Shown here in pieces: positions 47,111 to 47,869 of a stretch of DNA of 64,000 nt (positions are counted from its first letter, which is position 1; every line of letters begins with the position of its first letter). The stretch lies in NCBI RefSeq assembly GCF_029227855.1, contig NZ_CP074356.1. One strand, 5' to 3'. The notes beneath the pieces were generated by a model. It searched no databases. It saw only the letters and a list, made by a program, of their open reading frames with translations, and had not been told where the DNA came from. Origin of the DNA: Escherichia coli (lineage in GTDB: Bacteria > Pseudomonadota > Gammaproteobacteria > Enterobacterales > Enterobacteriaceae). The position numbers and the translations under genes were made by a program.

Positions 47111-47869
47111 TAAAATACCGGGCAATCTTTCCTGATACACATTATCACTGCACCAGCTATACAGAGACAAAATAATCTGCACCAGCCCCTGTAAATCGGT
47201 TATTTGTGCCAGTGTCCCGCCGCTCTACCTGTTCAGGGTTGTGCCAGTTTCTGGCCCTTTGGTTTTCGGCCCTTTCCGGTCAGGCGCTGTTACCCTTATT
47301 GCCCCTTAACCTTTATGACCCTTTCCCTTTCTGACGCAACCAGTTTATTTTGAAATGCTCCATGACAGTCTGCACCAGACTGTATTTTCACCACAGGATA
47401 ACGATCACAAAGTGCAAAAAAATAACATGAAGCACCGAAGATTGTTAATCTATATGTAGCAGGTAATGATGTCAAAAACTGTCGCAGCATTTTTTATAAA
47501 ATTATGAGACATTCTGTGGGCATATAATATATGTCACAAGATGCAGGAAAACAAAGAGAGAGTTTTCAGATATAATCCTGCGTTAGAATTAATGTGATGC
47601 CCCGGTGAATTTACATTTTAAAATTTCCCTGTCCCGTAATATCGGTAAAAACGATTGAAACACCAACTATTAATCGGGAACGTCTCGAGTGATTACAGGG
47701 TAATCACTATAATATCCCGGCAAACTATATTGGTTAAGCAGGAGAATCTGATCAGTTGATATTTATTCGTCATGCTGTAACGATATTTTCACAATATAAA
47801 CCCGTTCGCCCCCTGCGCCAGATCCGGTACAGAGGGTACGATAAATCGCTGTCGTTACGCAGTAACGTA

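What the first reader, a model, noticed from the sequence alone, without database searches (positions are those of the whole stretch)
47200..47340. CCCTTT-periodic low-complexity tract
A short stretch with tandemly recurring GGCCCTTT / CCCTTTCC-type units (ggccctttgg, cggccctttccgg, tacccttattg, gccccttaacc, gaccctttccctttctg) at roughly 10-15 bp spacing, separate from the iteron block. Possibly a phased protein-binding array or a slippage-generated tract.
Basis: seen in the sequence. Interest (0 to 1): 0.3.

Follow-up and report, generated by a model that had tools for sequence, protein, structure and literature searches.

The report
Conserved CCCTT array beside island relaxase
The CCCTT-rich stretch is real: it is a roughly 110-bp non-coding element kept across many enterobacterial genera between the integrase gene and a tyrosine-recombinase-type relaxase gene of small mobilisable genomic islands, and although nobody knows what reads it, it looks like a DNA-processing site of the island's transfer module rather than a slippage tract.

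Summary
Six CCCTT pentamers lie on one strand within 75 bp (47255-47329). No other 80-bp stretch of the 64-kb window has more than two. It is not a true tandem repeat: TRF finds only a weak 16-bp x2.1 array, and unit spacing is 6-23 bp.

The window is E. coli chromosome. The tract lies in a decayed 10.55-kb island at tRNA-Asn (attL 45094-45109, attR 55647-55662).

The same ~110-bp element occurs in 547 of 5,426 complete E. coli genomes and in at least a dozen other Enterobacterales genera. Wherever both flanks could be read it lies between the convergent 3' ends of a P4-type integrase and a PF12834+PF12835 "integrase-domain" gene, the MpsA/MOB_M atypical-relaxase family. It is more conserved than that gene's third codon positions. 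It has no supported secondary structure and no Rfam match, and it is not coding.

It is bracketed by a polar 9-mer, CTGCRCCAG. That 9-mer also fills the relaxase gene and flips orientation at the Rfam EFASI motif.

Best reading (about 0.4): a second cis-acting DNA site of the mobilisation module. The function is inferred, not shown. The window copy is probably a relic.

The parts
47108..47391 (.). Whole conserved unit: left 9-mer cluster, CCYTT array and right 9-mers. This is the block of homology shared with islands that carry unrelated integrases.
   Evidence: blastn against E. coli genomes: tRNA-Asp islands match only query positions 9-292 (window 47108-47391) at 82% identity. The weakest hits keep only 47240-47331.
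47148..47156 (+). 9-mer CTGCACCAG (left cluster, copy 1)
47177..47185 (+). 9-mer CTGCACCAG (left cluster, copy 2)
47204..47212 (+). Degenerate 9-mer TTGTGCCAG (left cluster, copy 3)
   Evidence: (repeat family D13)
47239..47247 (+). Degenerate 9-mer TTGTGCCAG directly abutting the array. It is CTGCGCCAG in most homologues.
47253..47331 (+). The CCYTT array itself. In the window it has 7 CCYTT units: 2 to the left of the core (with a degenerate GGTTTTC where most homologues have a third left unit) and 5 to the right. It reads AAGGG-type units on the - strand.
47281..47289 (+). Core CAGGCGCTG (CTGGCGCTG in most homologues). It is an inverted, one-mismatch copy of the 9-mer, followed by the nearly invariant TTACCCTT.
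47331..47339 (+). Inverted 9-mer-like CTGACGCAA on the right edge of the array (CTGGCGCA in relatives). It pairs with the left 9-mer in the minimum-free-energy folds.
47370..47378 (+). 9-mer CTGCACCAG (right of the array)
47896..48487 (-). Remnant of the MOB_M / MpsA-like gene (PF12834+PF12835). It is frameshifted, and residues ~195-256 are not recovered by tblastn, consistent with an internal deletion.
   Evidence: RefSeq annotation of the identical locus. tblastn with the intact L006 protein. Pfam scan of intact homologues.
48543..48670 (-). Rfam EFASI motif, 56 bp upstream of the relaxase start. The 9-mer polarity flips here.
48700..49176 (.). Conserved oriT-like region upstream of EFASI. 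It has a perfect 12-bp inverted repeat (48772-48783 / 48802-48813) and inverted 9-mers CTGGTGCAG at 48818, 48845, 48980 and 49168.
45271..46532 (+). P4-type tyrosine integrase, frameshifted pseudogene, convergent with the relaxase gene
46565..46594 (+). Intrinsic terminator hairpin of int. The equivalent hairpin lies directly next to the 9-mer cluster in compact relatives.
45094..45109 (+). attL: 3' end of tRNA-Asn
55647..55662 (+). attR: perfect 16-bp direct repeat of the tRNA-Asn 3' end. It sets the island at 10.55 kb.

Best explanation
The tract is the centre of a discrete, conserved ~280-bp cis-acting DNA unit (window 47108-47391). The unit belongs to the mobilisation module of a family of small integrative mobilisable islands of Enterobacterales.

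Module layout (shown). The module reads: tRNA, then a P4-type int, then the unit, then convergently a MOB_M (MpsA-like tyrosine-recombinase-type relaxase) gene, then EFASI, then an oriT-like inverted-repeat region.

Unit anatomy (shown). The unit consists of 2-4 directly oriented 9-mers (CTGCRCCAG). These are followed by about 8 one-strand CCYTT units arranged around an inverted near-copy of the 9-mer (CTGGCGCTG-TTACCCTT). One more 9-mer closes the unit.

Proposed mechanism (inferred). The 9-mers also surround the oriT-like hairpin on the other side of the relaxase gene, in the opposite orientation. I propose that they bind the module's DNA-processing protein, most probably the MOB_M protein itself. 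I propose that the CCYTT array is a second, oriT-distal assembly or processing site. It could anchor or loop the relaxosome, or mark where processing of the transferred strand ends or is primed.

Not resolved. It is unknown whether the array is read as duplex DNA or as the folded single strand (left 9-mer paired with the core, presenting the CCYTT loop).

The window copy. Both int and the relaxase gene are pseudogenes in this window, so this copy is most likely an inactive relic.
For: Shown:
1. The motif cluster is non-random.
2. The element occurs in 547 of 5,426 complete E. coli genomes.
3. It also occurs in Citrobacter, Salmonella arizonae and diarizonae, Klebsiella, Brenneria, Affinibrenneria, Samsonia, Cedecea, Entomohabitans and Tenebrionibacter. 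Relatives chosen by protein, without reference to the tract, in Serratia, Pantoea and Raoultella carry it too.
4. Among the genome-collection loci, wherever both flanks lie within the fetched DNA the element sits between the convergent 3' ends of int and the PF12834+PF12835 gene. Integrase identity ranges from 34% to 95% and relaxase identity from 45% to 92%, so the element travels with the relaxase module rather than with int. One E. coli locus (L005) has the relaxase gene but no int nearby.
5. Distance to the relaxase stop codon varies from about 18 to about 550 bp, and distance to the int stop from about 85 to about 1500 bp, yet the unit stays intact. This argues for an autonomous DNA site.
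6. The tract is more conserved than relaxase third codon positions in 99% of 190 pairs (74.5% against 61.5%).
7. There is no covariation-supported fold and fold z-scores are not significant. One-nucleotide indels exclude coding.
8. The 9-mer array is strongly polar: 143 '+' to 5 '-' between the tract and EFASI, and 0 '+' to 77 '-' upstream of EFASI, in 22 loci. Inside the gene it sits in all three reading frames. The same 9-mer flanks a conserved hairpin upstream of EFASI.
9. The core of the tract is an inverted 8-of-9 copy of the 9-mer, with one compensatory GC to AT change.

From the literature:
- PF12835 is the signature of MpsA-type 'integrase-like' DNA-transfer proteins (PMC10484663).
- MOB_M relaxases are abundant next to integrases in chromosomes (bioRxiv 10.64898/2026.01.13.699239).
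- In the related MobK system, a G-rich tract in oriT is needed for transfer but not for nicking (PMC8152469).
Against: - No binding, nicking or transfer data exist for this family. The assignment of the 9-mer to MOB_M rather than to the HTH_35 protein or a host factor is a guess.
- In SGI1 the experimentally defined oriT and the essential sRNA both lie upstream of mpsA, and nothing comparable is described downstream (PMC6414798, PMC9299015).
- CCYTT unit spacing (6-11 bp) is not helix-phased.
- The conserved T.T mismatch in the 9-mer:core repeat and the lack of strand preference among wobble-type changes (10 against 7) leave the single-strand fold unsupported.
- Relatives whose relaxase gene lacks an adjacent int (L011, L013, L014) have the 9-mers but lack the tract. 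The tract might therefore serve the int-relaxase junction, for example in transcription, rather than transfer.
- Most genome-collection loci were retrieved with a pattern that fixes 17 tract bases, which inflates apparent conservation. Correcting for this leaves the tract at about 70% identity against 61.5% for third codon positions.
Confidence: 0.4

Rival explanations
1. RNA-level element. Transcription of the relaxase gene runs into the tract and yields an unstructured purine-rich 3' region with repeated AAGGG / GGAAA units that resemble Shine-Dalgarno sequences. This region could bind a protein or ribosomes to control mRNA fate. Alternatively it could form a stable purine-RNA:pyrimidine-DNA hybrid (R-loop) that primes DNA synthesis on the excised island, as ColE1 RNA II or a retroviral polypurine tract does.
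For: - In compact relatives the tract begins 15-25 bp after the relaxase stop codon with no intervening terminator.
- The - strand carries clusters of G runs and is about 75-79% purine. This composition favours RNA:DNA hybrids (established knowledge of R-loop formation).
- C-to-T shifts inside units (CCCTTT to CCTTTT) keep the purine/pyrimidine character.
- MOB_M proteins are expected to stay attached to the 3' end, so a separate primer for replacement synthesis is an open need (PMC8152469).
- The window has a promoter-like site on the - strand at 47475-47447.
Against: - In the extended forms (the window and L006 clades) about 500 bp of AT-rich DNA with strong hairpins separates the gene from the tract, including a 16-bp stem at L006 8396-8361. 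The tract is therefore not always in the 3' UTR.
- The nearly invariant core and the flanking 9-mers indicate sequence-specific recognition rather than composition alone.
- The window's promoter-like site is not conserved in relatives.
- No expression data exist.
Confidence: 0.17
2. Transcription insulator between convergent genes. On the + strand the tract is a C-rich, G-poor, unstructured RNA, which is an ideal Rho-utilisation (rut) site. It would stop integrase read-through from running antisense into the relaxase gene.
For: - Composition of the + strand is C 35%, T 38%, G 17%, A 9%.
- The + strand has no stable fold.
- The tract is present only where int and the relaxase gene converge, and absent where int is missing.
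Against: - int has its own intrinsic terminator upstream of the unit.
- rut sites are defined by composition and are normally poorly conserved. Here a 15-20-nt core is nearly invariant across genera and the tract is more conserved than third codon positions.
- This reading does not explain the flanking 9-mers.
Confidence: 0.12
3. G-quadruplex element on the AAGGG strand. It would act in recognition by the type IV coupling protein, as was suggested for the G-rich tract in the MobK oriT.
For: - There is a precedent within the MOB_M family (PMC8152469).
- The - strand has 3-7 GGG runs, and maximum G4Hunter scores reach 1.76.
Against: - A canonical four-run G3 pattern is present in only 3 of 27 homologues.
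- The mean maximum G4Hunter score is 1.17, which is borderline.
- Loops are long, and many GGG runs are GG in relatives.
Confidence: 0.05
4. Arm-type or excisionase (recombination directionality factor) binding sites for the P4-type integrase next door.
For: The tract lies next to the 3' end of int. Direct-repeat arrays are typical of Xis/Cox-type binding.
Against: - The tract is constant while the integrase varies from 34% to 95% identity.
- It lies more than 2 kb from attL, on the far side of int from the core site.
- No CCCTT cluster or 9-mer lies near attR.
Confidence: 0.04
5. Neutral low-complexity DNA produced by replication slippage, with no function.
For: Rare gains and losses of 8-9-bp units occur (L141, L048, L208, L007, L140). 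TRF detects a weak 16-bp repeat.
Against: - Order, number and sequence of the units are kept across at least a dozen genera.
- The tract has a unique, nearly invariant core.
- Conservation exceeds that of synonymous sites.
Confidence: 0.03

Closest known systems
SGI1 mobilisation module (oriT, sgm-sRNA, mpsA, mpsB; PMC6414798, PMC9299015)
   Same: - The relaxase is of the tyrosine-recombinase type (PF12835).
- A GC-rich region with many inverted repeats and a structured RNA-like element lie immediately upstream of the gene.
- The element is an integrative island that depends on a helper for transfer.
   Different: - No mpsB gene follows the relaxase gene here.
- SGI1 has no described pyrimidine array or polar 9-mers downstream of mpsA.
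- SGI1 integrates at trmE with a different integrase. Here a P4-type int at a tRNA gene is convergent with the relaxase gene.
MobK oriT of plasmid pIGRK (PMC8152469)
   Same: It belongs to the MOB_M-type relaxase family. A G-rich tract is required for transfer but not for nicking, that is, a sequence element with a role after or apart from nicking.
   Different: That tract is 29 bp, lies inside the minimal oriT upstream of mobK, and was predicted to form a G-quadruplex. Here the element is about 110 bp, lies downstream of the gene about 1 kb from the oriT-like region, and quadruplex potential is not conserved.
Rfam EFASI and STAXI motifs
   Same: Both are conserved non-coding elements around the same 'integrase-like' genes. 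In ICE- and plasmid-type relatives a STAXI copy can sit just downstream of the relaxase gene (L008), the position the tract holds in the island family. STAXI bulges read CUGAGAGGA / CUGAAAGGGA on the gene's sense strand, reminiscent of the tract's CTGAAAGGGC / CCGGAAAGGG units.
   Different: cmscan finds no EFASI or STAXI match in the tract even at E <= 10. STAXI is a set of hairpins, whereas the tract has no supported structure.
Polar motif systems (KOPS pointing to dif; Chi)
   Same: A short G-rich oligomer is strongly over-represented, embedded in coding DNA in several frames, and reverses orientation at one point (here EFASI).
   Different: The scale is about 2 kb instead of a chromosome. 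The sequence CTGGYGCAG matches neither KOPS (GGGNAGGG) nor Chi (GCTGGTGG). No translocase or nuclease partner is known. The resemblance rests on my own knowledge of those systems, not on a test.
Folded single-strand sites used by tyrosine recombinases (integron attC, CTX phage attP)
   Same: Two inverted recombinase-type half-sites separated by tens of nucleotides could pair in a single strand. A tyrosine-recombinase-fold protein is encoded next door.
   Different: Only one compensatory change supports pairing, the T.T mismatch is conserved, and no strand preference is seen. No recombination product is known.

Membership tests
Tandem repeat / microsatellite (slippage tract) | Head-to-tail copies detectable by a repeat finder | tested here: not met
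   TRF reports nothing at its default score and only a 16-bp x2.1 array of score 45 at minimum score 30. Unit spacings are irregular.
Tandem repeat / microsatellite (slippage tract) | Copy number varies among close relatives | tested here: not met
   Unit number is essentially fixed across genera, with only five lineages showing gain or loss of 8-9-bp units.
Cis element of a MOB_M (MpsA/MobK/TcpM-type) mobilisation module | Adjacent gene encodes a PF12835 / tyrosine-recombinase-like protein | tested here: met
   Intact homologues hit PF12835 at E = 1e-62 and PF12834 at E = 4e-36. They give weak XerC hits. The sequence shows HSLRY and LGH...Y motifs.
Cis element of a MOB_M (MpsA/MobK/TcpM-type) mobilisation module | Consistent physical linkage of the element with the relaxase gene across lineages | tested here: met
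   26 of 26 true hits in the species-representative genome collection are consistent with this position. The 23 loci whose fetched DNA reaches the relaxase side all carry the gene, and three are cut off before it. All three protein-selected relatives carry the tract. The tract is absent from ICE- and plasmid-type clades at about 50% identity.
Cis element of a MOB_M (MpsA/MobK/TcpM-type) mobilisation module | Required in cis for conjugative mobilisation; bound or nicked by the relaxase | not testable with these tools
   This needs mating assays and biochemistry.
Canonical oriT of MOB_M elements | Located in the first intergenic region upstream of the relaxase gene, GC-rich, with inverted repeats | tested here: not met
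   The tract is downstream of the gene. The region that fits this description is 48700-48900, upstream of EFASI.
Rfam RNA families (EFASI, STAXI, others) | Covariance-model match | tested here: not met
   No relevant hit appears at E <= 10 on the tract alone. Only chance low-complexity matches are returned.
Structured non-coding RNA or ssDNA hairpin element | Conserved secondary structure with covariation | tested here: inconclusive
   RNAalifold finds 9 weak pairs and no compensatory change. Fold z-scores are -1.0 and +0.3. The 9-mer:core helix that I specified is 81-84% paired, with one compensatory pair in one clade.
Integrase arm-type / excisionase sites | Co-variation with the integrase, and presence on the att arms | tested here: not met
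   The tract is constant across integrases of 34-95% identity. Nothing similar lies near attR.
G-quadruplex-forming sequence | Four G3+ runs with short loops, conserved | tested here: not met
   The pattern is present in 3 of 27 homologues, and the mean maximum G4Hunter score is 1.17.
Rho-utilisation (rut) site | C>G, unstructured RNA of about 80 nt | tested here: met
   Composition and lack of structure fit. These features are permissive, not diagnostic, and Rho dependence itself cannot be tested here.
Protein-coding sequence | Reading frame preserved among homologues | tested here: not met
   One-nucleotide indels occur among homologues. The 49-aa and 42-aa ORFs found are therefore spurious.

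The most novel reading that the evidence does not exclude
The unit is a processing site peculiar to tyrosine-recombinase-type (MOB_M) relaxases and has no counterpart in classical HUH-relaxase systems. It would be a second site, about 1 kb from oriT and in inverted orientation. There the strand being transferred folds (9-mer paired with the core, CCYTT loop exposed) or the duplex is bound, so that a 3'-linked relaxase can terminate transfer or a primer can be laid down. The polar 9-mers that converge on EFASI would orient the machinery. If so, EFASI, long listed as an orphan 'sRNA' motif, would be part of the origin of transfer of a very common family of enterobacterial defence and virulence islands.
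Probability: 0.15. Interest if true: 0.75.

Novelty: new variant of a known kind. Interest (0 to 1): 0.45.

Why it matters
Islands of this family sit at tRNA genes in about one in ten complete E. coli genomes and in many other Enterobacterales. They carry type VI secretion, Rhs toxins, Dnd, Abi and other defence cargo.

Their relaxase class (MOB_M) was recognised as abundant only very recently. Its nick site and strand-transfer mechanism remain unknown even for SGI1 (PMC6414798).

A sharply delimited, conserved non-coding unit next to the relaxase gene, together with a polar 9-mer that flips at EFASI, gives concrete and testable candidates for the missing cis sites. It also provides a simple sequence marker for finding such islands, including decayed ones like this window's.

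For this particular window the element is probably inert, because both recombinase-family genes are broken.

Tried and rejected
- **Tandem repeat.** TRF gives a weak result only.
- **Coding.** ORFs of 49 and 42 aa overlap the tract, but homologues differ by single-base indels.
- **Known RNA family.** cmscan on the region and on the tract alone returns nothing relevant.
- **Structured RNA or ssDNA.** There is no covariation and z-scores are not significant.
- **Poxvirus / type IB topoisomerase CCCTT cleavage sites.** This was a lead from memory, prompted by the tyrosine-recombinase-fold neighbour. I found nothing to test it with and did not pursue structure prediction. It remains an untested resemblance.
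- **Sponge or target for the nearby C4 / isrK antisense RNA.** The only complementarity is a non-conserved TTAGCC hexamer on the wrong strand.
- **Extended composite site (9-mer plus AAAGG).** No consensus exists beyond the 9-mer in 280 sites.
- **oriT mimicry of a plasmid.** No plasmid in PLSDB carries the unit, apart from one misassigned Salmonella chromosomal record.
- **Phage or satellite origin.** There are no phage matches. Only 3 of 61 IMG/VR pattern hits are real, and all three come from isolate-genome entries and show the same integrase-flanked island context, so I take them to be island DNA swept into provirus calls.
- **Literature search for the core sequence strings.** No occurrence was found.
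- **Homologous-protein search.** It listed only relatives of 85% identity or more, so it did not help to sample distant clades.
- **Analogous pyrimidine tract next to distant MOB_M genes.** None was found.
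Full report
**1. What is in the sequence**

On the + strand between 47253 and 47331 the window reads GGCCCTTTGGTTTTCGGCCCTTTCCGGTCAGGCGCTGTTACCCTTATTGCCCCTTAACCTTTATGACCCTTTCCCTTTC. 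CCCTT starts at 47255, 47270, 47293, 47303, 47319 and 47325, and CCTTT at 47310.

The clustering is far beyond chance.
- The whole 64-kb window has 31 CCCTT on the + strand and 38 on the - strand, fewer than shuffles predict.
- No other 80-bp stretch on either strand has more than two.
- A Poisson estimate puts a six-hit stretch at about 1e-6 for the whole window.
- None of 2000 dinucleotide-preserving shuffles of the tract itself reaches six (mean 1.3).

It is not a regular tandem repeat.
- TRF gives only a 16-bp x2.1 array of score 45 at 47303-47335.
- Unit spacings are 6-23 bp.

**2. Where it is**

The window is E. coli chromosome at the asn-tRNA cluster (cobT, ldtA, tRNA-Asn, nac, cbl, tRNA-Asn, yeeO, tRNA-Asn). 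The third tRNA-Asn (45034-45109) carries a 10.55-kb island bounded by a perfect 16-bp repeat of the tRNA 3' end at 55647-55662.

From left to right the island holds:
- a frameshifted P4-type integrase (45271-46532, +) with its terminator hairpin (46565-46594);
- an AT-rich 'iteron block';
- the tract with its flanks;
- on the - strand, a broken 'integrase-domain' gene (47896-48487);
- the Rfam EFASI motif (48543-48670);
- an HTH_35 (Ner/SfsB-like) gene and a 153-aa gene;
- a C4-type antisense RNA and an isrK-like element;
- an Rhs core protein and a TPR protein as cargo.

**3. The neighbouring gene**

Intact homologues (292-295 aa) match Pfam PF12834 and PF12835 strongly and XerC weakly. They have no solved relative by sequence.

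The literature places this family as follows.
- PF12835 is used as the signature of 'integrase-like DNA-transfer' proteins (PMC10484663). This is the family of SGI1 MpsA, an atypical relaxase of tyrosine-recombinase fold (PMC6414798).
- A 2026 preprint names the class MOB_M. It reports that these are the commonest relaxases in chromosomes, that they were previously missed, and that 96% lie near an integrase (bioRxiv 10.64898/2026.01.13.699239).

The island is thus a decayed integrative mobilisable element. Both int and the relaxase gene are pseudogenes here.

**4. The tract is a conserved element**

*Distribution.* A 381-bp query around the tract matches 547 of 5,426 complete E. coli genomes. 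The most distant hits retain only window 47240-47331, which is the tract itself. These hits come from islands at tRNA-Asn, tRNA-Asp and tRNA-Phe with quite different cargo: type VI secretion, Dnd, Abi-type defence.

*Pattern scan of genomes.* A scan of one genome per species returned 45 stretches. The 26 from Enterobacterales are true homologues by a profile search: Citrobacter, Salmonella arizonae and diarizonae, Klebsiella indica and spallanzanii, Brenneria, Affinibrenneria (5 copies), Samsonia, Cedecea, Entomohabitans, Tenebrionibacter and an Escherichia sp..

*Position.* Among these genome-collection loci, wherever both flanks lie within the fetched DNA the element sits between the convergent 3' ends of a P4-type integrase (34-95% identical to a reference) and the MOB_M gene (45-92%). 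Three short loci stop before the relaxase side. It therefore travels with the relaxase module, not with a particular integrase. Among the E. coli loci, L005 has the relaxase gene downstream of the tract but no int nearby.

*Check for retrieval bias.* The pattern fixes 17 tract bases, so I also fetched relatives chosen only by protein. Serratia fonticola, Pantoea sp. Nvir and Raoultella planticola all carry the tract in the same place. The Pantoea copy would not have matched my pattern.

*Further variants.* A metagenome scan that left the core free added 52 true copies, giving 57 distinct sequences of the tract's left half in all.

*Where it is absent.* Plasmids and phages lack the element. The few IMG/VR hits come from isolate-genome entries with the same integrase-flanked context, which I take to be island DNA included in provirus calls.

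*Selection.* In 190 pairs of loci the 110-nt tract is 74.5% identical against 61.5% for relaxase third codon positions, and it is higher in 99% of pairs. Removing the 17 pattern-fixed bases leaves about 70%.

**5. Anatomy of the unit**

In the orientation of the window the order is:
- int stop codon;
- int terminator;
- two to four copies of CTGCRCCAG, 27-35 bp apart;
- three units of the type GCCYTTTYA / GCCCTTTG / GCCYTTTCC;
- a nearly invariant core GGTYTGGCGCTGTTACCCTTA;
- five more units (CCYTTA, CCYTT, GGCCTTTT, YCCTTTY);
- then one of two endings. Compact forms have a direct CTGCACCAG 15-25 bp before the relaxase stop. Extended forms, including the window, have an inverted CTGGCGCA followed about 30 bp later by CTGCACCAG.

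Further points:
- In the window the second left unit is degenerate (GGTTTTC).
- The block shared with tRNA-Asp islands is 47108-47391 and is flanked by unrelated DNA on both sides. The unit is therefore discrete.
- Its distance from the relaxase stop ranges from about 18 to about 550 bp, and from the int stop from about 85 to about 1500 bp.
- Unit number is almost constant. Rare 8-9-bp gains and losses exist: L141 has three consecutive GCCTTTTAA units, L048 has one extra unit, and L208, L007 and L140 have fewer.

**6. What the tract is not**

- Not coding: single-base indels separate homologues.
- Not a known RNA family: no relevant cmscan hit at E <= 10.
- Not a supported structure. RNAalifold finds no compensatory pair. 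Fold energies do not differ from shuffles on either strand.
- Not a conserved G-quadruplex: the canonical pattern occurs in 3 of 27 homologues.
- Not integrase arm sites: the tract is constant across unrelated integrases, and nothing similar lies near attR.

**7. The wider pattern it belongs to**

*Enrichment.* The 8-mer TGCRCCAG occurs 28 times in the window against 5.6 expected. Ten of these lie in 47149-49175: six on the + strand to the left and four on the - strand to the right.

*Polarity.* Across 22 distinct loci the 9-mer CTGCRCCAG gave these counts.

| Zone | '+' orientation | '-' orientation |
|---|---|---|
| Tract to just past the relaxase start | 143 | 5 |
| 710 bp upstream of EFASI | 0 | 77 |

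*Inside the gene.* The 9-mer occupies all three reading frames: five Leu-Ala-Gln tripeptides, plus x-Gly-Ala and Trp-His/Arg contexts. This points to selection on the DNA word itself.

*The oriT-like region.* Upstream of EFASI lies a strongly conserved ~200-bp region. It has a 12-14-bp inverted repeat flanked by TCTGGTGCAG copies 27 bp apart (window 48772-48813 and 48818/48845). This is the position and style of oriT in SGI1. There the order is promoter, oriT, core of an essential sRNA, then mpsA (PMC6414798, PMC9299015).

*Clade distribution.* The 9-mer array exists in island-type clades down to about 60% relaxase identity. It is absent from the ICE- and plasmid-type clade at about 50%. In that clade STAXI motifs flank the gene instead.

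*Link to the tract.* The tract's core, CTGGCGCTG, is an inverted 8-of-9 copy of the 9-mer. It lies 32-36 nt from the left 9-mer.
- The implied helix is 81-84% paired.
- It shows one GC to AT compensatory change in one clade.
- A T.T mismatch is conserved in 54 of 57 sequences.
- Wobble-type changes show no strand preference, 10 against 7.
This is inconclusive as to a single-strand fold.

**8. Interpretation**

*Shown.* The tract is a real, selected, discrete non-coding element of the MOB_M mobilisation module of a widespread island family.

*Inferred.* It works as DNA, for three reasons: its position is independent of both genes' ends, it has a sequence-specific core, and it shares the 9-mer with the oriT-like region. 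It would be a second assembly or processing site for the transfer machinery. I put this at about 0.4.

*Rivals.*
- A purine-rich 3' RNA or R-loop primer: about 0.17.
- A Rho-type insulator between the convergent genes: about 0.12.
- A quadruplex, integrase or excisionase sites, and neutral slippage DNA: small probabilities each.

One observation keeps a junction-specific role open: relatives that have lost the adjacent int also lack the tract.

In this window the element is most likely a relic, because both genes are broken.

**9. Comparison with what is known, and novelty**

The module is a relative of the SGI1, pIGRK and pCW3 MOB_M systems. None of those papers, nor the 2026 survey, describes a conserved element downstream of the relaxase gene or the polar 9-mer. 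The core sequence strings do not occur in the searchable literature, and Rfam has no model.

I therefore rate it as a new variant of a known kind: an undescribed cis element in a recently recognised class of mobilisation modules. The interest is moderate. It is not surprising that a mobilisation module has cis sites. But the element and the 9-mer polarity give testable handles on an unsolved mechanism.

Noticed in passing
window 47148-49176; loci L003-L068: A 9-mer CTGCRCCAG is enormously over-represented and strictly polar. In 22 loci it is 143 '+' to 5 '-' from the int end through the relaxase gene to EFASI, then 0 '+' to 77 '-' upstream of EFASI. Inside the gene it occupies all three reading frames (five Leu-Ala-Gln tripeptides).
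   Followed up: partly
window 48543-48670 (-); L007, L015, L021, L037, L053, L008-L011, L013, L014: The Rfam EFASI 'sRNA' motif always lies roughly 50-130 bp upstream of the PF12834+PF12835 (MOB_M) gene. The 'integrases' in its name are really these relaxase-like genes. It may be the analogue of the SGI1 sgm-sRNA or part of oriT.
   Followed up: partly
window 48700-48900 (inverted repeat 48772-48783 / 48802-48813): A strongly conserved region with a 12-14-bp inverted repeat flanked by TCTGGTGCAG copies 27 bp apart lies just upstream of EFASI. It is a good oriT candidate for this island family.
   Followed up: partly
window 45094-55662: The island is only 10.55 kb. It is bounded by a perfect 16-bp repeat of the tRNA-Asn 3' end. 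Both the integrase and the relaxase gene are pseudogenes, and the cargo is an Rhs core protein plus a TPR protein.
   Followed up: yes
window 46600-47100; L006 8150-8600: The AT-rich 'iteron block' consists of hairpins plus GAAAACCNATCAATA-type units (two ~131-bp copies at 46734-46864 and 46962-47092). Similar modules occur on the other side of the tract in another lineage and are missing from compact islands. No replication gene is nearby.
   Followed up: no
window 50104-50289 (-), 49589-50050 (-), 49404-49592 (-): A C4-type antisense RNA with its a1/b1-like targets and an isrK-like element precede a 153-aa protein with no family match and an HTH_35 (Ner/SfsB-like) gene. This phage-immunity-style cassette is conserved in the island family alongside the relaxase module.
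   Followed up: partly
L008 3153-3304 and 4943-5092; L009 3157-3314; L010 5936-6052: In ICE- and plasmid-type relatives (~50% relaxase identity) STAXI motifs flank the relaxase gene. In L008 one copy sits directly downstream, where the island family has the CCYTT array.
   Followed up: partly
L141, L048, L208, L007, L140 (left half of the tract): Rare gains and losses of 8-9-bp units occur, for example GCCTTTTAA three times in a row in L141. These are slippage-like events in an otherwise fixed array.
   Followed up: partly
window 47475-47447 (-): A good sigma-70-like promoter match (TTGACA, 17 nt, TAGATT) points leftwards into the tract. It is not conserved in relatives.
   Followed up: no
window 49254-49297: A near-perfect 20-bp inverted repeat lies just downstream of the HTH_35 gene. 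It is probably that gene's terminator.
   Followed up: no
L013, L014 (Salmonella records listed as plasmids): Two tRNA-Asn copies with an integrase N-terminal remnant between them are followed by EFASI and the relaxase gene reading away from the tRNA, and the tract is missing. This looks like a rearranged or tandem island. Several 'plasmid' records of 470-500 kb look like chromosomal segments.
   Followed up: no
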